A DNA stretch of 64,000 nt from Octopus vulgaris (Eukaryota). The stretch is taken from NCBI GenBank assembly GCA_951406725.2, contig OX597837.1:12338001-12402000 (forward strand), in the 5' to 3' direction. The translations under genes and the position numbers were made by a program. The notes under the pieces are model-generated. The model saw only the letters and a list, made by a program, of their open reading frames with translations. It was not told the origin of the DNA and ran no database searches. This document shows positions 2,461 to 61,712 of this stretch, one piece after another (position 1 is the stretch's first letter; each line of letters starts with the position of its first letter).

Positions 2461-3912
2461 ATGTCGAAGTTGAACGAATTTGTCAGCCATTATGGTTCAT
2501 GTCGATGGCGGCTGTGCTATGTCAGCTTTTTCGCTTTGCTTCTCATGCAGACTTTACGTGTAGACCTGAGTATGTCGTTAGTTTGCATGTTAAAAACACC
2601 CAATCGTACAACTGATGAAGTCGACCTTACTCGAAATAACGAACACTGTTCTCGTTTAGACAATCGTACATCAAATGGAGAAAATTTTGAAGGAGAGTTC
2701 GAATGGGGCAATACTCTTCAATCAAACATGTTAGCTGGATACTATTATGGATACATTATTACTAATCTTCTTGGCGGTGTATTAGCTGACAAATATGGCG
2801 GAAAGAGAGTTATGGGGGCTTCCATATTCTCGGCTTCTCTCCTGACCATTCTTCACCCAAGTCTAACACGAATAAGTGGTTATTTCACTCTTGTATTAAG
2901 GATACTTACAGGTCTGGTTTCAGGGCCCATGTGCCCTGCTGTCTTATCTCTGTGGGGACGGTGGGCTCCGCCATTAGAAAACAGCGTGTTGGTTGCAGTC
3001 TCTTTCTCTGGTTTATTAATCGGTAGCATTCTGGGTTTGTCAATTTCCGGTTTCCTTTGCGTTTATGGCTTTGACAATGGATGGGGTTCTATATTTTATA
3101 TATTTGGGGGTATATCTTTGGTGTTTAGTTGTGTGTGGTTTTATGTCGTTTATGATACCCCAGATGTCCATCCGACTATCAGCGACAAAGAACGTTCCTA
3201 TTTAAACAAAACTATAATACACAAGGGCCAAGTGAAGAGCGTTCCATGGAAGAGAATCATGTGTACTCCCGCTGTTTGGGCTCTTATAATTGCTCACACA
3301 TTCTACAATTGGACGATTATTTCTTTCCAGCTGCTTCTGCCTTTGTATATGAAAGAAGCATTAAATATCGATACGAAATCAAATGGTTTAATGTCTTCAG
3401 CTCCGTTCATTGGACAGTTCGCGGCTGTGCAATTCTGTGGAAGGTTTGCAGATATTTTGCGTTCAAAGAATTATCTTTCAACGCGTTCTGTACGAGTTCT
3501 CTTCCAGAGTATTTGTTTCCTTGGCTCAGCATCACTGCTGATTGCCATAGGATTCCTTGACTGTGAACAAACAACCCTGGCCGGCATTCTGTTCCTCTTC
3601 ACGGGTATCTGCTTAGCATTTTACATTGGCGGCTTCAATGTCAACCACGTGGACATTGCTCCTAGATACGCTGGTGTATTGATCGGCATTACCAACACTT
3701 TTGGTTCATTACCCGGATTCTTGGCTCCATTATCATCCAAAGCTCTTACACCGAATGGGACACAAGAAGAATGGCAAATTGTCTTAGCTTTGTGTGCGGC
3801 ACTTTCTGTATTCGGAACGATAATGTTCGCGATATTGGCGAGTGGAGATGTACAGGAATGGGCAAAATCTCAAGAAATGCCAAATAGTTCTTCTAAAGCG
3901 GAAGAATCATAG
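2461..3912 (+). CDS. SLC17/sialin-like MFS anion transporter, paralog 1 (483 aa, intron-free CDS, most divergent copy)
   Basis: Uninterrupted ORF with LRVDLS, FEW, GYYYGY, GGVLADKYGGK, WGRWAPPLE, GWGSIFYIFG, VYDTPDVHPTIS, VPWKRI, NHVDIAPRYAG and EEWQIV, the SLC17 family motifs. Confidence 0.95.
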   Translation: MSKLNEFVSHYGSCRWRLCYVSFFALLLMQTLRVDLSMSLVCMLKTPNRTTDEVDLTRNNEHCSRLDNRTSNGENFEGEFEWGNTLQSNMLAGYYYGYIITNLLGGVLADKYGGKRVMGASIFSASLLTILHPSLTRISGYFTLVLRILTGLVSGPMCPAVLSLWGRWAPPLENSVLVAVSFSGLLIGSILGLSISGFLCVYGFDNGWGSIFYIFGGISLVFSCVWFYVVYDTPDVHPTISDKERSYLNKTIIHKGQVKSVPWKRIMCTPAVWALIIAHTFYNWTIISFQLLLPLYMKEALNIDTKSNGLMSSAPFIGQFAAVQFCGRFADILRSKNYLSTRSVRVLFQSICFLGSASLLIAIGFLDCEQTTLAGILFLFTGICLAFYIGGFNVNHVDIAPRYAGVLIGITNTFGSLPGFLAPLSSKALTPNGTQEEWQIVLALCAALSVFGTIMFAILASGDVQEWAKSQEMPNSSSKAEES

Positions 3913-6970: not shown

Positions 6971-7649
6971 TTGATATTACCAAACAGGAGAGAGAAGTTA
7001 TAACAAGTTTATCTTTTTATTATCATGGCCAATAATTGCTATTGTAAAATCATTGTTTTATAAACACTTCAGAATGAAACTTTCCATTCTCTTACATAAT
7101 CTGTATAATACACTTTCCAACCACTAGAATCGCTTTCTGTTTATATTTTCATTTAGCCTATTTCCTCTCCAGCTCATATTATAAGCTCCCAAATTTCCCT
7201 CGCTCTCCCACTATCCCTCCTCTATTTTTCGCTCATGCCAGTAGGCGTTTGATTTAGTATACGTTTAGATGCGTGTGTGTAAGTGTGCGCGTGTCTGTAA
7301 CTAATTACTAACTTGTGTGTACGTGTGTGTTTGTGTGTTTGTGTGCTAGTTCATGTGTCGATAATGTTAACAGAGCCCCGCCACGGTGAGTGTACATACG
7401 TCACCAAATGCAAAAAGCTACGATTAACAAACATATCAGATCTAGTAATCTGCGGTAACAGCTGGATTCTGCAAAACTGTAAACACTCGGCCAAACAGTA
7501 AGTATAAAAATGATTTACTTTTCAATTTTTAAGAAGCATGTACAACGTATTACCCTTCTGTTATGAATGCGTGGAGAACCTCTTCAGCATTATTACGTTA
7601 GCCGAAAAGAAATCCGAAGTCGGAATGCTTCGTTTCTCAGAACCAATGT

Positions 7650-9895
<2,246 letters not shown>

Positions 9896-11595: not shown

Positions 11596-14318
11596 TTGAC
11601 AGGGAATGACAGGGACCAACAGACAGACATAAAACCCAACACTAATATCAACAACACATATACCAGAAACAGGAACAATGAATATATCACTAGCGATGAT
11701 AGTAATAATGGCAATGGTAGGAATAAAGGTAATAACAATAATAGTGGTAGTAGTAGTGGTGGTGGTAACAGTAGAAGTAGTAATGAGGATAGTAGTGATA
11801 GTTGTGGTGGTAATAGGAATACTAGTAGTAGTAGTAGTAATGGTGATAATAATAATAGGAAGGCTGATGTTGGAAACAGTAACGATAATGAAGATAACCC
11901 TAGAAAGACCATTGACATGTATACCCATCCCTTTGACACTCAATTCTTCAACGTATGCGACAAAACTTACTGCATGAACCGAATTTATCAACAACATTAC
12001 CCTTCAACAAAAGGGTATACATCCCAAGACGTACTAATGACCACATGGAAGCACAGTTTACTATAGCTAGGACCAAACTTAGACAGATTTTAGGATTATA
12101 CATTAAGAGACAGAGACAGAATAAGACAGATGCCCAACAACTAGGATTAAACCTGCATGTGGCCTACAGAAGCTCATTCAGCGCACGAGGAACGGAGAGG
12201 TGATATGCCTTCCCACGGATAAGTCCGGCAGGATGTCAATAGACAGCTTACCGAACTACATCCAGGCAATGCAACCTCATATCGCCAATACAAAAATAAC
12301 AACTGTACAGGCGCATGAGGAGAGAGAAAAGGTCCTCAATGCCCACATGATGATATGGACAATTGTTGTGGGACCCCAGAAACGTACTGCAAAGAATTTC
12401 CAAGCCTGGAACAATGATATCCCGGTACTGTATGGACTTCGCAAGGACCATAAAGGTTTTTACTGACCCTATAGCAGGACCACCAACAAGACCAGTCTGT
12501 GGAGCGAATATCGCTAGCAATTACAGAATCTCCTACTTCCTCTCAATGATCATACGCCCTATAATCAGGATGTCACCTGATGTGTGTGACAGCACAGAAG
12601 ATCTCCTAAGCAGGATCAGTGACTGTAACAAAACTTGTGACTTGACAGGATGTATAGTAGGTAGCATGGATGTGGTATCCCTATACCCATCGATTGACGT
12701 GGATTTTGCAGTGGAGAAGTGCGTGGAGATGATCAACGAGAGCCAGGTGGAGTTCTGTAATGTCGACACAGAAGAACTGGGCCTCCTACTTAGACTGACA
12801 TATAATAGTGAATACTTAGATAAACATAATCTTAGTAGTTTCTGCCCCAGTAGAGGTTTAAGAGGTAGACCGCCTACAATTACTTCTATGGCTAGGAAGA
12901 CTCATATAGAAAGATGGCGCGGATGGACCAGAGCCATACGGAGCCCCGCAAATGTCCATCAGGTAAAGAAAATGATCGCACATGCACTAGTAGCTAGTAT
13001 AAGAGTTACCCTAAAAGGCCACACATTTAAATTTAATAATAAAATATATGCCCAGGACGAGGGGGCAGCCATCGGTGTTAGTATCGCTGGTGATGTGGCC
13101 AACATTTTCATGGTATGGTGGGACAGAAGGCTTAAAGAACGCCTACTGCAGAAATCCATACTCGTAAACATGTACTCTCGCTATGTTGATGATATCAACA
13201 TAGTAGTAAAGGCACCCCCACAAGAGAGTAATGTTGATATAGTAATAGAAACTAATACTATGGAGAGCATCCAGCAAATAGCTAACTCCATCCACCAGAG
13301 TATTAAAGTCACAATAGACTACCCCACTAAACACCCCAACCATAGACTACCAGTACTAGACACTGAACTCTGGCTAGAAATTGTGAAAAATAAAACCCAA
13401 ATCCTTCATTCATACTATGCAAAACCTATGGCCTCAAAATACCTGATCCACCGGAACTCAGCCATTGCGGGCAATGCCAAATTCAATATTTTGATGGCAG
13501 ACCTCGTCAGAATAATGAGAAATGTGTCACGCATGTGCGAGCCTACAGAATTAAAGAGACACATACAGTATTTCATTCACCGCATGCAGTTCTCAGGTTA
13601 CAGCCATAAAGAAAGGATCAGAGTATACAAAGGAGCCATGAAGAAATTTGATAATATATTATGTAATGATAGGAATGGTATTTGCCCACTCTATAGGAAC
13701 AAGTCATGGAACACTATAGAAAGGACAAAAAAGAAAATAGGGAAGGCCAACTCTTGGTATGATAGCCATAAATACCAGAGTGTCATGTTCGTTGACACCA
13801 CCCCTGGAGGTGAACTAGCGTACCGCTTTAGAAGGACCCTAGATAAACTTAAACTAAGAATTAAGGTTGTTGAAAAGCCAGGCAACCCTATCAAATCTAT
13901 AATTGGTAGAAGCTATCCTTTTAGTAGAACCCTCTGTACGGATAACTATTGCACCGTATGTAGATTTAGCCCACAAACAAACTGTAAAGCCAGAAATGTA
14001 GTCTATAGTATAAGATGTATAGAGGGACGATGCAGTAACAAGACAATAACATACGTAGGGGAAACGGCAAGAAGCATAGGAGAGCGGGTGAATGTACATT
14101 GGAGACAGCTCAAGGAAGGTAAAAGCTCATCGATTCTGTACCAACACGCCGAACAGGAACACGGGGGATCAATCAATAACATAGAGATTAAGATATTGTC
14201 CACACATAGAACAGATGCAACAATTAGACAAATTACAGAAGCTACACATATTATAGAAAATAAACCTAGCCTGAATAGAAAACTAGAATGGAGCAATAGC
14301 ACACACCACAACATATGA
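11596..14318 (+). mobile_element. Penelope-like retroelement (Naiad-like): RT plus C-terminal GIY-YIG endonuclease; N-terminus broken by at least 2 frameshifts
   Basis: Fragments read LPFNKRVYIP, GLQKLIQRTRNGEVICLPTDKSGR and PVLYGLRKDHK. An open frame then carries GPPTRPV, GSMDVVSLYPSID, GAAIG, YSRYVDD, LPVLD, YYAKPMAS, CTDNYCTVC and NVVYSIRC...YVGETARSIGER. Confidence 0.9.
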
Positions 14319-19090: not shown

Positions 19091-20056
<966 letters not shown>

Positions 20057-21520
20057 ATGTCTCGATTTACGAATTGTATTCAGCGCTATTGCTCGTGTCG
20101 ATGGAGATTATGCTATATTTGTGCAATAGCTTCTCTTGTTATGCAAACATTAAGAGTCGATATAAGTATGGCGTTTGTTTGTATGTTGAAAACCCCGAAT
20201 CGTACAAGCGAAGAAGTTAACGTTACTACAGACAACCAACATTGTTCCGGATTCGATAACCGTTCAATGATCGAAAACTATGAAGGGGAGTTTGAATGGA
20301 GCGACACGTTACAATCAAACATACTGGCCGGATACTTCTATGGATATATAGCAACTAATTATTTGGGTGGTTTATTGGCCGATAAATACGGTGCGAAAAG
20401 AGTTGTCGGAGGTTCAATACTCTCAGCATCCATTCTGACCATTCTTCATCCAAGTTTGTCTCGAATTAGTGGTTACTTGACCCTCGTTCTAAGGATATTA
20501 ACAGGTATGGCATCAGGATCAATATACCCGGCGTTTCAATCCCTATATGGACGTTGGGCGCCTCCGCAAGAAATTGGTTCGTTGGTTGGGCTTACATTCG
20601 CTGGTCTGTATTTAGGTAATATTGTAGGACTTTCAATATCAGGTTATCTTTGTCTTTATGGATTTGACAATGGATGGGGTTCTATATTCTATGTATTCGG
20701 TGGATTATCGTTGGTGTTTAGTTGTGTGTGGTTTTATGTTGTTTATGATACTCCAGATGGCCATCCAACCATTAGCGAAAAAGAACGTTCTTATTTAAAC
20801 AAAACTATAATAAGTAAAAAAGTGGTGAAAAATGTACCATGGAGACGACTCCTTTCTTCGCCTGCAGTTTGGGCCATTAGCATTGGCTGGTTTGCTAAAA
20901 GTTGGACTGGTTTGTCTTTCCAGGTGTTGCTACCCCTTTATATGAAAGAAGCCTTAAACGTTAATACGACCTCTAACGGTTTAATGTCATCTGCTCCTTC
21001 GGTCGGACTGATCATTGCACTACCACTGTGCGGGAACCTGGCTGATTTTATACGTTTAAAGAAATATATGTCAACTCGTTGTGTTCGCGTTTTATTCCAA
21101 ACCGTTTCTCTGATTGCTTCAGCATGTCTGTTGATAGTCATAGGATTCCTCAGATGTGACCAAACCATTCTAATAACTATCTTATTGTTTCTCATTGGTA
21201 TAACTCTATCATTTTCCAGTGGTGGTGTTATCGTCAACAACAATGATATTGCTCCAAGTTATGCTGGAATTATATTTGGAATTGCAAATACAATCGCAGC
21301 AACCTCGGGAAGTATTTCTCCTTTATCTGCAAAAGCTCTCACCCCAAACGGTACACAAGAAGAATGGCAGATCGTGTTTGCTTTGTGTGCTGCTATATGT
21401 GTTGTTGGTACAATATTATATGCAATATTAGCAAGAGGAGAAATTCAAGATTGGGCGATTTCAGAAGACCCTGGGCCATCTGTTCCCCTTAATGACATGA
21501 ACACAAATGAATCGGCTTAA
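20057..21520 (+). CDS. SLC17/sialin-like transporter, paralog 2 (487 aa)
   Basis: Intact single-exon ORF, colinear with paralog 1. Confidence 0.95.
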   Translation: MSRFTNCIQRYCSCRWRLCYICAIASLVMQTLRVDISMAFVCMLKTPNRTSEEVNVTTDNQHCSGFDNRSMIENYEGEFEWSDTLQSNILAGYFYGYIATNYLGGLLADKYGAKRVVGGSILSASILTILHPSLSRISGYLTLVLRILTGMASGSIYPAFQSLYGRWAPPQEIGSLVGLTFAGLYLGNIVGLSISGYLCLYGFDNGWGSIFYVFGGLSLVFSCVWFYVVYDTPDGHPTISEKERSYLNKTIISKKVVKNVPWRRLLSSPAVWAISIGWFAKSWTGLSFQVLLPLYMKEALNVNTTSNGLMSSAPSVGLIIALPLCGNLADFIRLKKYMSTRCVRVLFQTVSLIASACLLIVIGFLRCDQTILITILLFLIGITLSFSSGGVIVNNNDIAPSYAGIIFGIANTIAATSGSISPLSAKALTPNGTQEEWQIVFALCAAICVVGTILYAILARGEIQDWAISEDPGPSVPLNDMNTNESA

Positions 21521-28434: not shown

Positions 28435-29898
28435 ATGTCTAAATTTACCAGCTGGATTAAGCGTTATTATTCTTGCCGATGGAGATTATGTTATGCCTCT
28501 ACTGCAGCATTTCTCGTTATGCAAACATTGAGAGTTGATCTAAGCATGGCATTTGTGTGTATGTTGAAAACGCCCAATCGTACAAACGAGGAAGTTAACA
28601 TTACTGCAAACAACCAAGAATGTTCCGGTTCAGGTAATCATTCAATAAATCAAAATTTTAAAGGAGAATTCGAATGGAGCGATACGTTACAATCGAACAT
28701 GCTGGCTGGGTACTTCTATGGATACGTAATAACAAACATTCTAGGTGGTATATTGGCTGATAAATACGGTGGGAAAAGAGTTGTTGCAGGTGCAATAATT
28801 TCAGCAGGCATTCTTACCATTCTTCATCCATGTTTAACTCGAATTAGTGGTTACATTACGCTTGTTTTCAGAATATTAACAGGTTTGTTATCAGGACCGA
28901 TAGTCCCAGCAATTCAGTCCTTATATGGCCGTTGGGCGCCTCCGCAAGAAATTAGTTTATTGGTTGGGCTTACATTTGCAGGTCAGATTCTAGGCAATAT
29001 TGTAGGACTTTCAATATCAGGTTTTCTTTGTGTTTATGGATTTGATAATGGATGGGGTTCTATATTCTATGTATTCGGTGTATTATCGTTGGTGTTTAGT
29101 TGTGTGTGGCTTTATGTTGTTTATGACACTCCAGATGACCATCCAACCATTAGCGAAAAAGAACTCTCTTATTTAAACAGAACAATAATAAGTAAAAATG
29201 TAGTTAAAACAGTGCCATGGAAACGACTCCTTTCTTCACCTGCAGTTTGGGCCATTTGCATTGCTTGGTTTGCTCATAGCTGGACTGATTTGTCTTTCCA
29301 GGTGTTGCTCCCTCTCTATATGAAAGAAGCCTTAAACGTTAATACAACCTCCAACGGTTTAATGTCATCTGCTCCTTCGGTCGGACAAATCATTGCCCTT
29401 CCCCTGTGCGGGAAATTGGCTGATTTTATACGTTTAAAGAAATACATGTCAACTCGTTCTGTTCGAGTTTTATTCCAGACCTTCGCGCTGATTGCTTCAG
29501 CATGTCTGTTGATTGCCGTAGGATTCCTCAGATGCGACCAAACCATTCCAATAATTATGCTCCTGTTTCTCATTGGTATAACTCTGTCATTTTCCAGTGG
29601 TGGTGTTATCGTCAACAACAATGATATTGCTCCAAGTTATGCCGGGATTGTATTTGGCATTGCTAATTCTTTCGCAACAACGTCTGGTGGTATCAGTTCC
29701 TTAACTACAAAAGCTCTCACCCCAAACGGTACACAACAAGAATGGCAGATTGTGTTGGCCTTGTGTGCCGCTATATGTGTAGTCGGTGCAATATTGTACG
29801 CAATATTGGCAAAGGGAGAAACCGAAAAGTGGGCGATTCCGAAAGACTTAGCTTTATCTGTTCCTCTGAACGATATAAACACAAATAAAACGGTTTAA
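28435..29898 (+). CDS. SLC17/sialin-like transporter, paralog 3 (487 aa)
   Basis: Intact single-exon ORF, with putative acceptor ttttcag at 28380. Confidence 0.95.
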   Translation: MSKFTSWIKRYYSCRWRLCYASTAAFLVMQTLRVDLSMAFVCMLKTPNRTNEEVNITANNQECSGSGNHSINQNFKGEFEWSDTLQSNMLAGYFYGYVITNILGGILADKYGGKRVVAGAIISAGILTILHPCLTRISGYITLVFRILTGLLSGPIVPAIQSLYGRWAPPQEISLLVGLTFAGQILGNIVGLSISGFLCVYGFDNGWGSIFYVFGVLSLVFSCVWLYVVYDTPDDHPTISEKELSYLNRTIISKNVVKTVPWKRLLSSPAVWAICIAWFAHSWTDLSFQVLLPLYMKEALNVNTTSNGLMSSAPSVGQIIALPLCGKLADFIRLKKYMSTRSVRVLFQTFALIASACLLIAVGFLRCDQTIPIIMLLFLIGITLSFSSGGVIVNNNDIAPSYAGIVFGIANSFATTSGGISSLTTKALTPNGTQQEWQIVLALCAAICVVGAILYAILAKGETEKWAIPKDLALSVPLNDINTNKTV

Positions 29899-37528: not shown

Positions 37529-37989
37529 CAGCCTTTGTCATCCTAGAAGTCCATATCGTTAGAAGTCCTAGAAGTCCATATGTGCGATTCTAACGACTCG
37601 CATTCTCTAACTTTTCAGACCAGTGCGCAGACGCAAAACATACCCGGCGAACAGAGAGGATGCCGGTAGAAGGTCTACGAGCAAAAATTTTATCAATTCA
37701 ATAATGAAAAATTGAATTAGACCATATTTAGAAAACTTACATATTATAGAAAGATTAAATATAAGATGAAAACATATAACAATGATTAAGTAATGTGCAA
37801 AATAATAAACAAAACGCATATATTTGTTATATATTATTTTGTACATAATTAATCATTGTTATATGTTTTATCTTCTATTTAATCTTTCGTGGAGCTTTAG
37901 GTGTTTTCGCTCAATAAACACTCACAACGCCCGGTCTGGGAATCGAAACCGCGAGTTCGCTTTCCTTGCCACCGGGTAATTGCGCTTCC

Positions 37990-38085
<96 letters not shown>

Positions 38086-39236
38086 ATACATACATATATA
38101 TTTATACATATACATATATATATATATCATATTTTGTGAAATTTGATTTAGTATTTTTAAACTGAATTTTTTCCTGTAAGTTTGGAATAATATTCCCTCA
38201 TATAATAATAATAATTATTATTATTATTATGTATATATATATGTATATATATGTATGTGCATATATATATATATATATAAATCCATTACATCTAATATTA
38301 TATGTTACTATTTATCGCTTTATCTACTTTGAGTTCTAGTTCAAGGCTTCTAAACTTTTATGCTGTAAAACAAAATATATATATAAACAAATGAGTTCAT
38401 ATTGATTCCTTATATTGACACAGGTCCACACAAGTCAGTGAATGCACAATCGACAGATTCTTGCCTCAACAGACGACATAAAGAGACGTTAAGTAATTCT
38501 GAAGAATATTTTTTTCTCAATTTCGCCCATTCTGTCCACCCATATTTATCACTGGATGCAAATTTTCTGAAGAGGGATCTTCACTTTTCGCCACTCGTTT
38601 GAAACAAAGAGTAAATTACTCAGGAAATGAATGAACAGTCTGCTTTTTTTTTAAGTGTAAAGATTCAGAGAAACGGTGGACAGAAAAGGAATTGGGAATT
38701 TTGTCTCCTCGATTTTCCGTATCATTACAGTGTAAAAAAAGTCTTAGAATCTATGTTCTCTGTATATTACTGGTATAAAGTTGTACCTTAACAGTAATTT
38801 ACCTTTTTTCTTGATTGTATATTTGTCTTGCTCTGAGGAATTTAGTGTCAAAGAAAAACAGAAAAGAAATACAGCTAAAACAAATCAATATATGTCTTTA
38901 CAATGTGTGGTAAATGGCATGCATGCTTATCGATTATAAATAAAGCTAAATGACTGCGAAATGTAATTGTACTAATGAGATTCTCATCATAGTTTTGGAA
39001 GATTATATCTCATTCTATGAAAAAAAATACGTTTTAGAGAACACAAAAACATATTTTATATAATAAAATTATTTTAAACAAAGTGACCAAATCAATGAAA
39101 TAATTTGTTAATTGTCGAACGCTACCTTTCAGGGTTTATTTCAGCAGACAGAACGTACACCTCTCAGGAATTGATATCCTTTCAGATTCGAAACCTCAAC
39201 CAAAACCTCGGGAGGATCCGTAGAAAAGATACAACA

Positions 39237-40699
39237 ATGTCTCGATTTACTTATCGCATTCAGCGTTGTTACTCGTGTCGATGGAGGTTATGTTATATTT
39301 GTGCAATAGCTTCTCTTGTTGTGCAAACATTAAGAGTCGATATAAGTATGGCGTTTGTTTGTATGTTGAAAACCCCGAATCGTACAAGCGAAGAAGTTAA
39401 CGTTACTACAAACAACCAACATTGTTCCGGATTCGATAACCGTTCAATGATCGAAAACTATGAAGGAGAGTTTGAATGGAGCGACACGTTACAATCAAAC
39501 ATACTGGCTGGATACTTCTATGGATATATAGCAACTAATTATTTGGGTGGTTTATTGGCCAATAAATTTGGTGCGAAAAGAGTTGTCGGAGGTTCAATAT
39601 TCTCAGCATCCATTCTGACCATTCTTCACCCAAGTCTGTCTCGAATTAGTGGTTACTTGACCCTCGTTCTAAGGATATTAACAGGTATGGCATCAGGGCC
39701 AATATACCCAGGAATTCATTCTTTATATGGACGTTGGGCGCCTCCGCAAGAAATTGGTTCGTTGGTTGGGCTTACATTTTCTGGTCTAAATTTAGGCAAT
39801 ATTGTAGGACTTTCAACATCAGGTTATCTTTGCGTTTATGGCTTTGATAATGGGTGGGGTTCTATATTCTATCTATTTGGTGGATTATCATTGGTGTTTA
39901 GTTGTGTGTGGTTTTATATTGTCTACGATACTCCAGATGCCCATCCAACCATTAGCGACAAAGAACTTTCTTATTTAAACAGCACAATAATAAGTGAAAA
40001 GGTGGTGAAAAAGTACCTTGGAAAAGACTAATTTCTTCTCCCGCTGTATGGGCCATTAGCATTGGTCGGTTTGCTCATAGTTGGACTAGTTTAACTTTCG
40101 AGGTTTTGCTCCCTCTTTATATGAATGAAGCCTTGAACGTTAATACAACCTCCAACGGTTTAATGTCATCTGCTCCTTCGGTTGGACAAATCATTGCACT
40201 ACCTCTGTGCGGGAACTTGGCTGATTTTATACGTTTAAAGAAATATATGTCAACTCGTTGTGTTCGCGTGTTATTCCAAACCTTTGCGCTGATTGCTTCA
40301 GCATGTCTGTTGATAGCCACAGGCTTCCTCACATGTAACCAAACTGTTCTAATAACTATCTTATTGTTTCTCATTGGTATAACTCTATCATTTTCCAGTG
40401 GTGGTGTTATCGTCAACAACAATGATATTGCCCCAAGTTATTCTGGAATTATATTTGGAATTGCAAACACTTTCGCAACAACTTCGGGAAGTATTTCTCC
40501 TTTATCTGCCAAAGCTTTCACCCCAAACGGTACACAAGAAGAATGGCAGATCGTGTTTGCCTTAAATGCTACTGTATGTGTAGTTAGCACAATATTATAT
40601 GCAATATTAGCCAGAGGAGAAATTCAAGATTGGGCGATTTCGGAAGACTCTGGATCACCTGTTCACCTTGACGACATGAACACAAATAAATCGGTTTAA
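39237..40699 (+). pseudogene. SLC17/sialin-like paralog 4 with a 1-nt frameshift (pseudogene or assembly error)
   Basis: 1463 nt versus 1464 in intact copies. The A-run at 40008-40012 has 5 A, where paralog 5 has 6 (gtg aaa aaa gta). Both halves are otherwise open. Confidence 0.85.
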
Positions 40700-45942: not shown

Positions 45943-46024
<82 letters not shown>

Positions 46025-46035
46025 TATATATATAA

Positions 46036-46329
46036 ATTAGAAAAAATCCACCTTTTATCAATTCAATAATGAAAAATAAATTATACAATATTTATAAAAA
46101 TTACATATTATAGAAAGATTAAATATACGATAAAACATATAACGTTGATTAAGTAATGTGCAAAATAATACATACCAAATATATACGTTTTATTTATTAT
46201 TTTGCACATTAATTAATCATTGTTATATGTTTTATCTTATATTTAATCTTTCTATAATATGTAATTATTCTAAACGGCATAATTCAATTTTTCATTATTG
46301 AATTGATAAAAGGTGTTTTTTTCTAATTA
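46036..46329. mobile_element. AT-rich foldback/MITE inserted in (TA)n; partial copies at ~37686-37888 and ~55481-55596
   Basis: aattagaaaaaa..ccttttatcaattcaataatgaaaa ... ttttcattattgaattgataaaagg..ttttctaatt. Arms are about 135 bp. Confidence 0.75.
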
Positions 46330-46402
<73 letters not shown>

Positions 46403-48198: not shown

Positions 48199-49662
48199 AT
48201 GTCTCGATTTACAAATTGCGTTCAGCGCTATTGCTCGTGTCGATGGAAATTATGTTATATTTGTGCAATGGCTTCTGTTTTGGTGCAAACATTAAGAATT
48301 GATATAAGTATGGCGTTTGTTTGTATGTTGAAAACCCCGAATCGTACAAGCGAAGAAGTTAACGTTACTACAGACAACCAGCATTGTTCCGGATTCGATA
48401 ACCGTTCAATGATCGAAAAATATGAAGGAGAGTTTGAATGGAGCGACACGTTACAAGCAAACATACTGGCTGGTTTCTTCTATGGATATATAACAACTAA
48501 TTCTTTGGGTGGCTTATTGGCCGATAAATACGGTGCGAAAAGAGTTGTCGGAGGTTCAATATTCTCAGCATCCATTCTAACCATTCTTCACCCAAGTCTG
48601 TCTCGAATTAGTGGTTACTTGACCCTCGTCCTAAGGATATTAACAGGTATGGCATCAGGACCAATATACCCAGGAATTCATTCTTTATATGGACGTTGGG
48701 CGCCTCCACAAGAAATTGGTTCGTTGGTTGGGCTTACTTTTGCTGGTCTAAATTTAGGCAATATTGTAGGACTTTCAATATCCGGTTATCTTTGCGTTTA
48801 TGGCTTTGATAATGGGTGGGGTTCTATATTCTATGTATTCGGTGGATTATCGTTGGTGTTTAGTTGTGTGTGGTTTTATATTGTCTACGATACTCCAGAT
48901 GCCCATCCAACCATTAGCGACAAAGAACATTCTTTTTTAAACAGAACAATAATAAGTGAAAAGGTGGTGAAAAAAGTACCTTGGAAAAGACTAATTTCTT
49001 CTCCCGCTGTATGGGCCATTAGCATTGGTCGGTTTGGTCTTAGTTGGACTGCTTTGACTTTCCAGCTGCTGCTACCTCTGTATATGAAAGAAGCCTTAAG
49101 CGTTAATACAACCTCCAACGGTTTAATGTCATCTGCTTCTTCGGTTGGACAAATCATTGCACTACCCCTGTGCGGCAAGTTAGCTGATTTTGTACGTCTA
49201 AAGAAATACATATCAACTCGTTGTGTTCGCATTTTATTCCAAAGCATTGCCCTGATTCCTTCAGCATGTCTGATGATTGTCATAGGATTCCTCAGATGTG
49301 ACCAAACCATTCTAATAACTATCTTATTGTTTCTCATTGGTATAACTCTATCATTTTCCAGTGGTGGTGCTACCGTCAACAACAACGACATTGCCCCAAG
49401 TTATGCTGGTATTATATTTGGAATTGCAAACACTTTCGCAACAACTTCGGGAAGTATTTCTCCCTTATCTGCCAAAGCTTTAACCCCAAACGGTACACAA
49501 GATGAATGGCAGATCGTGTTTGCCTTAAGTGCTGCTGTATGTGTAGTTAGCACAATATTATATGCAATACTAGCAAGAGGAGAAATTCAAGATTGGGCGA
49601 TTTCGGAAGACCCTGGGGTATCTGTTCCCCTTAAAGACATGAACACAAATGAATCGGCTTAA
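48199..49662 (+). CDS. SLC17/sialin-like transporter, paralog 5 (487 aa from the ATG at 48199)
   Basis: Intact ORF. The track's extra 44 aa start at a TTG and are not conserved across paralogs. Confidence 0.95.
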   Translation: MSRFTNCVQRYCSCRWKLCYICAMASVLVQTLRIDISMAFVCMLKTPNRTSEEVNVTTDNQHCSGFDNRSMIEKYEGEFEWSDTLQANILAGFFYGYITTNSLGGLLADKYGAKRVVGGSIFSASILTILHPSLSRISGYLTLVLRILTGMASGPIYPGIHSLYGRWAPPQEIGSLVGLTFAGLNLGNIVGLSISGYLCVYGFDNGWGSIFYVFGGLSLVFSCVWFYIVYDTPDAHPTISDKEHSFLNRTIISEKVVKKVPWKRLISSPAVWAISIGRFGLSWTALTFQLLLPLYMKEALSVNTTSNGLMSSASSVGQIIALPLCGKLADFVRLKKYISTRCVRILFQSIALIPSACLMIVIGFLRCDQTILITILLFLIGITLSFSSGGATVNNNDIAPSYAGIIFGIANTFATTSGSISPLSAKALTPNGTQDEWQIVFALSAAVCVVSTILYAILARGEIQDWAISEDPGVSVPLKDMNTNESA

Positions 49663-59150: not shown

Positions 59151-61712
59151 CAAGCAGACAAATTTTAAAAAATGCAGAATGCTCAAATGAAAGAAAATTT
59201 TCATAAAATGAGAAAATGAGAAAATATATAAATATATATTTATTCAAACCGGTTTTCGTCATTGTTTGACTTGTCAAGAATATTTATGTTAAAAAAGTTT
59301 TTTAAAAATTAGAAAGGGGAAAAAGAGAAAATTGCATTGTTTTTTGTAAAAGAATAATAATAAGAATGTACAAAAATTAAAAAATGAGTACTCCGATACA
59401 TTGTGAGTTCGTTGTGTATCTTGAGTTTAATGATTGTTCACGAAAAAATTACCTTGAGGTGTTAAGATCCAATGGGATTAAGAGCATGTGTTGTTTGGTT
59501 TAATTCAGGATGTTGGCAGAACAGGAAGTAGTAGTAATTGTGGTTCTTCAGTTCCTGTGTTGTGAGTAAGGGGAGACAACTCTTTTGAGTTCTTCAATAA
59601 AGGCTGTTGGTAAAACCCAAATTATAAAATTATCATTTGCGTTAACTTTTTTATATAATTGTTTGTTAACTTAACTTTCAGATTTTAACACTTTATTTAT
59701 ATTATTTTCTAATTATATAAATCTGCATAGACAATTGCATTTCAGATTGTCATATCATTTATAATAAAAATGATAGTAATAACAACAATAGTAAAAATGA
59801 TATTTAAAGAATATAAGTTTTAGCTTGTAGTGATGAATGCATGGTATCTTTATATATTTGTGTTAGTCCATCCATGAAGAGTGAGGTAGAAAAAGGAAGT
59901 TTGATCAACGAGGAGTTTGCATATTAAGTTGTGTTTGGAATTTTTCAATAAAGAGATTCTCCTTGTTAATTCTCTCTTGTGTGGTGATCCCGTCTTTACA
60001 TTGGTAGAAGGGGAATATATAGAATTTGGGGTTTAAGTCTTTAGCACATGAGTCTAAGTGGTCACTCAGTGGAATTTGTCGGTATTCCGGGAGATTTATT
60101 TATTCTTTATGCACCGTTACTCGTTTACGTAACGGGAGACTCGTTTGTCCAACATAATTATGTTGGCAACCAGCGCATGTGAGAACGTAGATAAGGTTCT
60201 CGGAGGAACAGGAGAAGTTAGTCTTGATTTTAAACTTCGTACCTTGTTTGAAGGTAAATTCAGAGCCTTCAAGTAGAAAGGGGCAGGTACCACAGTTTGA
60301 GCGTGCACATTTTTTTACTGTTGGGGGTGGATGTGGTGTATGAAGTTTGGCATTTGTCAAGAGTCTTTTTAAAGATTTGTGTTGCCTTTTACATTTGAGG
60401 ATTTTGTGTGTATTTATAATGTTTTTCATTTTTGGGTCTGTTGACAGTAGACTGAGGTTTTGTATGATTGTGGTGTATGCTTCGATATTTTTGGGGTTGT
60501 GGGTGGAAATGTATGGAAGTATTCTGAGGTTGTGTGTGGTGTTAGGTTGGGTGGTTTTCAGTGTAGTGTTATCTAGTTCTTTGGCGCGTTTTATTCCATA
60601 CTCTATAAGGGTGGAGGGATATTGACGTTGTAATAGTGTTTTTTTGAGGTCTTGAAGGCGTATTTCTCGTGTTTTTGGATCCGAGACAATGGTGCATACC
60701 CTTTTAGCTAAATTGAAAGGGATATTTGTCTTGGTGTGTTTTGGGTGGCATGAACTAAAGAGGAGGTATTGTTGTGAGTCTGTAGGTTTGTGGTAGATGT
60801 CTGTTATGATTTGGTTCTTAGGTGTTTTTATAATTAGGAGATCAAGGAATGGGAGATGATGTTCGCTTAATTCCATAGTGAATTGGATGTTGGGATGTAT
60901 GTTGTTTAGTATGGTTTTGAATTCCAGGAGTTTTTCATAAGGTTCTTTCCATATGATGAAACAATCATCTAAATACCTTTTCCAGTTTTCCATTAGGTAG
61001 GTGTGGAAAACATGTCCAAATTTCTGGCTTGATATTTCATAGAGTGACAGTTCGCAAGGACTGGTGCAGCCTTGGTACCCATCGCAATACCACATTTTTG
61101 ACGGTAGTGTGTGTCGTCGAACAGAAAAAAATTGTTTGTCAGAATGAACTTGAGAGATTCTGTAATAAAAGACTTGTTGATGCGGTCAGGGAATGTCTCT
61201 GGGTGTTTTCGCAAATGAAGCTAAAATGATAATTTTATAATTTGGGTTTTACCAACAGCCTTTATTGAAGAACTCAAAAGAGTTGTCTCCCCTTACTCAC
61301 AACACAGGAACTGAAGAACAACAATTACTACTACTTCCTGTTCTGCCAACATCCTGAATTAAACCAAACAACACATGCTCTTAATCCCATTGGATCCTAA
61401 TACCTCAAGGTAATTTTTTCGTGAACAATCATTAAACTCAAGATACACAACGAACTCACAATGTATCGGAGTACTCAATTTTTAATTTTTGTACATTCTT
61501 ATTATTATTCTTTTGCAAAAACCAATGCAATTTTCTCTTTTTCCCCTTTCTAATTTTTAAAAAACTTTTTTAACATAAATATTCTTGACAAGTCATACAA
61601 TGACGAAAACCGGTTGAATAAATATATATTTATATATTTTCTCATTTTCTCATTTTATAAAAATTTTCTTTCATTTGAGCATTCTGCATTTTTTAAAAAA
61701 ATTGTCCTTGCT
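59149..61712 (-). mobile_element. 5'-truncated Penelope-like element (Neptune-like) with ~490-bp inverted termini
   Basis: ORF remnant 61214-59905 reads YRQKCGIAMGTKAAP, WKRYLDDCF, LPFLD, YHKPTD, CARSNCGTC and ENLIYVLTC..YVGQT. There is an internal deletion or frameshift near 61050 and a premature stop at 60100. Segments 59149-59638 and 61224-61712 are reverse complements. Confidence 0.92.
59241..59282 (-). ncRNA. Hammerhead ribozyme with U3-A8 core in the PLE terminal repeat (inverted copy at 61580-61620, plus strand)
   Basis: Reverse complement: tattc-TTGACAA-gtca-aacaa-tgac-GAAA-accggt-TT-gaata. The plus-strand copy lacks one T at the cleavage site. Confidence 0.75.

What the first reader, a model, noticed from the sequence alone, without database searches (positions are those of the whole stretch)
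20870..20930. Hypervariable substrate-pocket positions among otherwise very similar paralogs
Seen, TM7: AHTFYNWTIISFQ (1), GWFAKSWTGLSFQ (2), AWFAHSWTDLSFQ (3), GRFAHSWTSLTFE (4), GRFGLSWTALTFQ (5), GWFAHCWTAFSFQ (6). The site equivalent to VGLUT2 R322/sialin Y301 is Y/K/H/H/L/H, and the site three residues before it is H/W/W/R/R/W. The sialin H183-equivalent is L/Q/Q/H/H/Q, and TM5 reads GLL/GLY/GQI/GLN/GLN/GLF. Neighbouring loops are nearly invariant. Inference: diversifying selection on ligand specificity, producing a repertoire of transporters or sensors for different organic anions.
Basis: partly seen in the sequence, partly recalled or inferred. Interest (0 to 1): 0.75.

Follow-up and report, generated by a model that had tools for sequence, protein, structure and literature searches.

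The report
Octopus transporter array with varied pockets
An octopus chromosome carries a row of more than forty copies of a sialin-like transporter gene whose cargo-selecting pocket changed quickly after each duplication and then stayed put between species, so the copies likely carry different small acidic molecules.

Summary
In detail: all six TM7 motifs and the residue lists are as stated. The genes belong to a 536-kb array of at least 47 near-full-length SLC17 (sialin-like) copies with intronless coding regions in an Octopus genome; 33 are intact. The array likely descends from a retrocopy of an intron-rich gene on another contig. The variable residues line the ligand pocket of sialin/VGLUT2, not the lipid face. 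Fifteen pocket sites taken from published structures evolve about twice as fast as other membrane sites in the array, but not in other molluscs (0.88x). The excess lies on branches after duplication (2.3x), not after speciation (0.87x; LRT 28). The anion anchor (R57, Y119) is kept; both proton-coupling glutamates are absent. However, dN/dS above 1 is not shown (M8 vs M8a LRT 0; pocket-only test on young branches p about 0.06), and gene conversion is present. Best reading: specificity divergence after duplication, giving likely proton-uncoupled organic-anion carriers. No substrate, tissue or sensor role is shown. The octopus sialin expansion is already reported; the pocket pattern was not found in print.

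The parts
2461..3912 (+). g1: intact single-exon SLC17-like coding sequence, 483 aa, older sub-clade with the most sialin-like TM7 (H..YN)
7379..7497 (+). Non-coding leader exon of g2; ends at a GTAAGT donor (7498); start approximate, taken from the 119-base loose end in run X8
   Evidence: one match in the genome
19247..19478 (+). 5'-UTR exon of g2 after an AG acceptor at 19246; acceptor also kept upstream of g4, g5, g6
20057..21520 (+). g2: intact single-exon SLC17-like coding sequence, 487 aa, predicted 12-helix MFS fold
20153..20155 (+). g2 Arg equivalent to sialin R57 / VGLUT2 R88, conserved anion anchor
20501..20515 (+). g2 TM4 Thr and Ser in place of sialin E171 and E175 (proton-coupling glutamates absent)
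20525..20527 (+). g2 site equivalent to sialin F179 / VGLUT2 Y195; fastest codon of 456 in the array
20609..20611 (+). g2 TM5 site equivalent to sialin Q207; 9 residue types in 30 paralogs
20885..20923 (+). g2 TM7 motif GWFAKSWTGLSFQ; variable positions 279, 282, 283, 286, 287 = sialin H298, Y301, N302, F305, Y306, one helix face
21230..21232 (+). g2 TM10 site equivalent to sialin S411; 8 residue types in 30 paralogs
28435..29898 (+). g3: intact single-exon coding sequence, 487 aa
39237..40699 (+). g4: copy with a one-base frameshift in an A run near 40010; pseudogene or assembly error
48199..49662 (+). g5: intact single-exon coding sequence, 487 aa
62688..64000 (+). g6: intact coding sequence, 487 aa, running past the window's end (complete in locus L002)

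Best explanation
These genes are part of an octopus tandem array of SLC17-family transporter copies whose ligand-pocket residues changed fast after gene duplication and little after speciation, so the copies likely form a repertoire of carriers for different organic anions. Shown: the array, its single-exon coding regions, an intron-rich sister gene, a kept TM1 arginine and TM2 tyrosine, a variable second half of the pocket (sialin F179, Q207, H298, Y301, N302, F305, Y306, S411), and no TM4 glutamates. Inferred: the array began as a retrocopy; the kept Arg/Tyr pair holds one carboxylate or other anionic group as in sialin and VGLUT2; the variable sub-site selects the rest of the molecule; without the glutamates transport would be driven by voltage or gradient, or run as exchange, and not by proton symport; selection fixed new pockets in short bursts, then held them while gene conversion evened out other parts and many copies decayed. 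Substrates and tissues are unknown.
For: Pocket set of 15 sites taken from sialin papers (PMC9858498 passages; PMC11116495 sections 8-10) and noted before the site tests. In 30 non-redundant intact paralogs dN/dS is 0.55 (0.47-0.64) for the pocket and 0.24 for 297 other membrane codons; random 15-site sets reach this in 8 of 100,000 draws. Amino-acid rate pocket/other is 2.01 in the array and 0.88 in 31 non-cephalopod molluscan homologs. On a 77-sequence tree the ratio is 2.30 on post-duplication and 0.87 on post-speciation branches (LRT 28.2); 0 of 40 rate-matched non-pocket sets reach that contrast. It holds without the three reader-named sites (2.08 vs 1.05, LRT 11.2) and without TM7 (2.06 vs 0.91, LRT 11.4), while 45 non-pocket neighbours give only 1.08 vs 0.85. 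In 18 O. vulgaris-O. bimaculoides ortholog pairs 26 of 263 pocket cells differ against 421 of 5145 other membrane cells; in 6 independent young paralog pairs 20 of 90 against 182 of 1781. Young branches have pocket dN/dS 1.08 against 0.43 on older branches (LRT 8.96 for a changed ratio). R57 is Arg in 28 and Lys in 2 of 30; Y119 is Tyr in 27 and Phe in 3. The model matches sialin best (TM-score 0.85).
Against: No test gives dN/dS significantly above 1: M8 vs M8a LRT 0, extra class at 1.02; free mixture gains 0.05; branch-site LRT 0; young-branch pocket 1.08 vs 1, LRT 0.18; pocket-only mixture LRT 5.5, reached by 9 of 150 null simulations. Gene conversion is clear (runs test p 5e-5; PHI-type test p 0.0025), and synonymous divergence also peaks near pocket helices in young clades (0.31 at codons 251-300 vs 0.06-0.08 at 13-155; L030-32 0.36 vs 0.11), so pocket pN is about equal to local pS. 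The pairwise paralog-versus-ortholog contrast alone has p 0.07, and with Octopus-only speciation branches and no reader-named sites the LRT falls to 3.4. Sialin itself tolerates conservative pocket changes with little change in affinity (PMC10149257 passages). 14 of 48 near-full-length copies are disrupted. No transport assay exists.
Confidence: 0.65

Rival explanations
1. Relaxed constraint after duplication: redundant copies lose constraint on the pocket for a while, drift, and are then conserved without any gain of new substrates; the array mainly adds dosage or expression domains.
For: Pocket dN/dS on young branches is 1.08, not distinguishable from 1; no dN/dS above 1 anywhere; 14 of 48 copies disrupted; sialin's recognition is loose (PMC10149257).
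Against: Relaxation should touch gates and other membrane sites as well: on young branches the rest of the protein stays at 0.30, and gates (1.28) and neighbours (1.08) barely move after duplication. Orthologs keep their pockets.
Confidence: 0.2
2. Gene-conversion mosaic: the peak at TM7 is a stretch that escaped homogenisation, or was copied in from a more distant paralog, by chance and not by selection on the pocket.
For: Mosaic pattern among g2, g4, g5, g6; pS up to 0.32 in the middle third against 0.04-0.11 in the first third.
Against: The excess is residue-specific (pocket 2.3x, neighbours within 6 residues 1.08x), spans TM4, 5, 7 and 10, and appears across 30 paralogs of about 65% mean identity.
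Confidence: 0.08
3. Continuous arms race: a pathogen or toxin binds the pocket and drives ongoing change in every copy.
For: Many residue types per pocket site, up to 9 in 30.
Against: Orthologs in different species are no more divergent at the pocket than elsewhere (0.87-1.11x); no dN/dS above 1.
Confidence: 0.03
4. Sensor repertoire: the proteins bind ligands and signal, or gate an anion current, in chemosensory cells instead of moving cargo in bulk.
For: Loss of proton-coupling glutamates and a receptor-like repertoire size; a sensing role is claimed for a mammalian sialin fragment (bioRxiv 2025.05.04.652104, search listing only).
Against: The glutamates are also absent in the intron-rich parent and E171 in all, E175 in all but one, of the non-cephalopod molluscan homologs of the same clade, so the loss is not special to the array; tails are short (11-12 and 17-35 residues); no tissue data.
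Confidence: 0.04

Closest known systems
Octopus 'sialin' gene-family expansion (Albertin et al. 2015, as cited in PMC6110919 and PMC6062618; passages read; the original was not held)
   Same: Very likely the same family: O. bimaculoides and O. sinensis copies annotated 'sialin-like' or 'slc-17.2-like' interleave with these genes as orthologs.
   Different: The two reviews only list the expansion. Whether the original or its supplements describe the tandem array, lack of introns or pocket change could not be checked.
Human sialin SLC17A5 (PDB 8DWI, 8U3D-H; PMC9858498, PMC11116495)
   Same: Best solved match by sequence (E 1e-94) and fold (TM-score 0.85); R57, Y119, R168, N430 mostly kept.
   Different: E171 and E175 absent in 30 of 30; Y54 mostly Gln; H298, Y301, S411 variable; N-terminal tail much shorter; many copies instead of one.
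VGLUT2 SLC17A6 (PDB 7T3N, 8SBE; bioRxiv 2022.07.26.501550 passages)
   Same: R88/Y135 carboxylate site kept; same fold (TM-score 0.84).
   Different: No Arg at the R322 position in any of 30 copies and no E191 equivalent; the second carboxylate and amine sub-site is the variable part.
Vertebrate SLC17A1-A4 (NPT) organic-anion exporters
   Same: Functional analogy: membrane-potential-driven organic anion transport (reference titles seen in PMC10149257); their tandem arrangement and broad specificity are recalled.
   Different: No NPT sequence was compared here; four genes against more than forty; orthology not claimed.
Birth-and-death families with diversified ligand pockets (odorant receptors, cytochromes P450, SLC22; recalled)
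   Same: Tandem copies, pseudogenes, gene conversion, pocket change after duplication.
   Different: Here the scaffold is an SLC17 carrier, apparently confined to octopods among the hits.

Membership tests
SLC17 (anion:cation symporter family, MFS) | 12-helix MFS fold closest to sialin/VGLUT | tested here: met
   Pfam MFS_1 E 1e-44; 12 long helices in the model, pLDDT 86; top fold hits sialin and VGLUT2
SLC17 (anion:cation symporter family, MFS) | TM1 substrate arginine (sialin R57) and TM4 arginine (R168) | tested here: met
   R57 Arg in 28 of 30, Lys in 2; R168 Arg in 30 of 30
SLC17 (anion:cation symporter family, MFS) | Transport of organic anions | not testable with these tools
   needs a flux assay
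Sialin (H+/sialic acid symporter, SLC17A5) | Proton-coupling glutamates E171 and E175 | tested here: not met
   Thr in 30 of 30 and Ser/Leu in 30 of 30; roles from PMC9858498 and PMC11116495
Sialin (H+/sialic acid symporter, SLC17A5) | Sialic-acid contacts Y54, H298, Y301, S411 | tested here: not met
   Y54 is Gln in 28 of 30; H298 7 types, Y301 8 types, S411 8 types
Sialin (H+/sialic acid symporter, SLC17A5) | N-terminal lysosomal dileucine signal (recalled) | tested here: inconclusive
   No motif in the 11-12 residue tails, but the pattern also missed the fish sialin control
Vesicular glutamate transporters (SLC17A6-8) | Second arginine R322 in TM7 and TM4 glutamate E191 | tested here: not met
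   No Arg at g2 position 282 and no Glu at 154 in 30 of 30
Retrogene-derived tandem array | Intronless coding region with an intron-rich sister gene elsewhere | tested here: met
   Single-ORF copies on C24; sister protein P0043 maps in 11 pieces over about 31 kb on C3
Retrogene-derived tandem array | Poly(A) remnant and target-site duplication | not tested
   the founding event predates the Argonauta-Octopus split, so traces are unlikely
Genes under diversifying selection (site-model sense) | A class of codons with dN/dS significantly above 1 | tested here: not met
   borderline p about 0.06 for pocket sites on young branches
Functional divergence after duplication (different between paralogs, constant within orthologs) | Ligand sites fast on post-duplication branches and ordinary on post-speciation branches | tested here: met
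   2.30 vs 0.87, LRT 28.2; 2.29 vs 1.11, LRT 13.5 with Octopus-only speciation branches

The most novel reading that the evidence does not exclude
Octopods have turned one SLC17 retrocopy into a repertoire of about thirty proton-uncoupled anion carriers or sensors with a fixed anchor and an exchangeable selectivity sub-site, serving a receptor-like role in chemical sensing or secretion; in this window four whole coding exons (g2, g4, g5, g6) may be chosen by alternative splicing from one shared leader exon.
Probability: 0.12. Interest if true: 0.8.

Novelty: new variant of a known kind. Interest (0 to 1): 0.5.

Why it matters
The sialin expansion is one of the few gene-family expansions listed for the octopus genome, yet no account of what it does turned up in the searches. 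The array is a natural mutagenesis series of the SLC17 pocket: about thirty intact variants on one scaffold, with orthologs across species as replicates. It makes two questions testable: which residues set SLC17 substrate choice, and what chemistry octopods needed many anion carriers for.

Tried and rejected
Site models M1a/M2a, M7/M8/M8a in my own code (M0 log-likelihood -20990.37 against IQ-TREE's -20990.47; branch lengths scaled from M0; 8 beta classes): M8 beats M7 by 8.5 but not M8a, so no positive-selection class. Branch-site model on six young clades: LRT 0. Best single site F179, LRT 5.8 uncorrected among 456, not accepted. 'Glutamate loss is an array novelty': rejected. Sequencing runs: no RNA holder listed on record, no tissue labels; contig depths were not used to rank genes. 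Per-branch substitution counts were not obtained; a branch-class likelihood test stands in. Dileucine search: control failed. Literature: 'octopus'+'sialin' gave 8 papers, 7 listed, of which I opened the two cephalopod reviews; 'SLC17'+'cephalopod'+'expansion' 6 papers, listing only; a six-term expansion search 0; further listings showed no title on this family; word searches in PMC9068888, PMC13218726 and PMC9795677 found no 'sialin' or 'SLC17' in the main text. The 2015 genome paper and its supplements were not held and may bear on novelty. Earlier scan notes: 8 of 34 genome-wide matches were shown, none on this array; none nearby. Rows dropped: 4 of 34 intact copies above 98% identity; 13 of 14 disrupted copies (g4 kept); in the 77-sequence tree 8 partial or redundant database proteins as well.

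Full report
What is there. The window holds six copies of a 483-487 residue MFS transporter gene on the + strand, each coding region a single exon. The closest solved structures are human sialin and rat VGLUT2 by sequence and by fold of a confident model (mean pLDDT 86; TM-score 0.85 to sialin). The nearest database proteins are from Octopus and Argonauta, and O. vulgaris records lie on a contig of the same length as C24, so the genome is taken to be O. vulgaris.

The array. A genome search scored 88 of 98 candidates and placed the window within a cluster at C24:12.295-12.831 Mb. I recovered 33 intact copies there, one on C20, 14 near-full-length copies with stops or frameshifts (g4 among them) and several fragments. 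This is a lower bound, and some near-identical copies may be assembly redundancy; 30 intact copies remain below 98% identity. In a 128-sequence tree the array is one clade with copies from three Octopus species and Argonauta, and its sister is a cephalopod gene (P0043 group) that maps in 11 pieces over about 31 kb on C3. An origin by retroposition followed by tandem duplication is the inference. Contigs of two coded runs from two studies join an exon ending at 7497 (GT donor) to an AG acceptor at 19246, so g2 is likely transcribed and spliced in its 5' UTR; the runs are only guessed to be RNA.

Do the variable sites line the pocket? In TM7 the variable positions are 279, 282, 283, 286, 287 and 290, one helix face, matching sialin H298, Y301, N302, F305, Y306 and L309. 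Across the array the pocket splits in two. R57, Y119, R168 and mostly N430 stay; F179, Q207, H298, Y301, N302, F305, Y306 and S411 show 7-9 residue types in 30 genes. In VGLUT2 the first group binds one carboxylate, and much of the second binds the other carboxylate and the amine (bioRxiv 2022.07.26.501550 passages; the residue matching beyond Y135 and Y195 is my inference from spacing). E171 and E175, which couple protons in sialin, are absent from all 30; this is shared with the parent and nearly all molluscan relatives. In DgoT, removing the equivalent glutamate leaves exchange but not net flux (PMC10149257 passages).

Is it selection? Over the whole tree, no. Mean dN/dS is 0.247, and neither M2a nor M8 improves on its neutral null. 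The pocket is still far faster than other membrane codons (0.55 vs 0.24), a pattern absent from 31 non-cephalopod molluscan homologs (0.88x against 2.01x). On six young paralog clades pocket dN/dS rises to 1.08 while the rest stays at 0.30; allowing values above 1 for pocket sites gains 5.5, reached in 9 of 150 null simulations, and an all-site branch-site test gains nothing. Gene conversion complicates this: informative sites among g2, g4, g5, g6 come in runs (18 against 31.5 expected), and synonymous divergence peaks near pocket helices in young clades.

The most telling test compares branch types. With O. sinensis, O. bimaculoides and Argonauta proteins, branches were labelled post-duplication or post-speciation by species overlap (77 sequences; a BLOSUM62-derived model; FastTree lengths). 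Pocket rate relative to other membrane sites is 2.30 after duplication and 0.87 after speciation (LRT 28.2), and 0 of 40 rate-matched control sets reach the contrast. It survives removing reader-named sites or all of TM7 and is not shared by neighbouring residues or gates; it weakens to LRT 3.4 in the strictest combination. Orthologs often keep identical pocket strings, and the frameshifted g4 shares its R..HS..SL TM7 signature with an O. bimaculoides protein. Lasting relaxation or an arms race would make orthologs diverge too; they do not.

How it most likely works. Each copy is predicted to be an alternating-access carrier that holds an anionic group at the fixed Arg/Tyr site and tells cargoes apart with the variable sub-site, driven by voltage or gradient and not by protons. 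New copies take pocket changes quickly, useful ones are then conserved, conversion evens out other segments, and about three in ten copies decay. I give this 0.65; temporary relaxation without new substrates 0.2; conversion artefact 0.08; sensor role 0.04; arms race 0.03. The steps from pocket change to different substrates, and from missing glutamates to uncoupling, are inferred. Sialin's tolerance of pocket mutations is a real caution.

Known and new. The genes are SLC17 members but fail the defining residues of sialin proper and of VGLUTs, so the database label 'sialin' is loose. The expansion is on record from the 2015 octopus genome paper as cited by two reviews; I could not read that paper or its supplements. 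My searches and word searches in three cephalopod genome papers found no account of the array's pocket evolution, its likely retrogene origin or its function. Pocket diversification in tandem families is a familiar pattern (recalled), so this is a new variant of a known kind: solid, testable, not yet surprising. Interest 0.5.

Noticed in passing
window 7379-7497, 19246, and the matching acceptors near 38420, 47380 and 61920: The leader exon spliced to g2 has one match in the genome, while g4, g5 and g6 each keep the acceptor and UTR exon. They may share one promoter by alternative choice of a whole coding exon, have unrelated leaders, or be silent. Not shown.
   Followed up: partly
window 19479 and about 19953: A GTAAGT donor after the UTR exon is kept in g2 and g6 but lost in g4 and g5; a second possible acceptor about 100 bases before the ATG is kept in all four.
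   Followed up: partly
L020, L021 (C24:12.609 and 12.620 Mb): These two copies have Lys at the R57 position, a change that abolishes sialin transport, plus Lys at the H298, N302 and L415 positions: a strongly basic, unusual pocket. O. bimaculoides P0010 also has Lys at R57.
   Followed up: no
L034 (C20:45752633-45754039): One intact intronless copy sits on another contig, with orthologs in O. sinensis and O. bimaculoides.
   Followed up: partly
L012/L013/L019/L033; L011/L035/L041/L045; L015/L016/L023: Groups of copies 97-100% identical in DNA, many with single-base gaps or stops: recent segmental duplication or assembly artefacts.
   Followed up: partly
window 8296-9246 and 12354-14318: Reverse-transcriptase-related ORFs (zf-RVT, weak RVT_1), likely LINE remnants inside the 11.7-kb first intron of g2.
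   Followed up: no
window 60100-61185 (- strand): 361-codon open frame with no Pfam match, between g5 and g6.
   Followed up: no
window 45974-46390: A 417-base inverted repeat (89% self-complementary), probably a small DNA transposon, with related pieces near 37700-38200.
   Followed up: no
g2 codons 241-257 (window about 20775-20825): Second variability peak among g2, g4, g5, g6 on the cytosolic helix before TM7, lying in the high-pS conversion segment.
   Followed up: no
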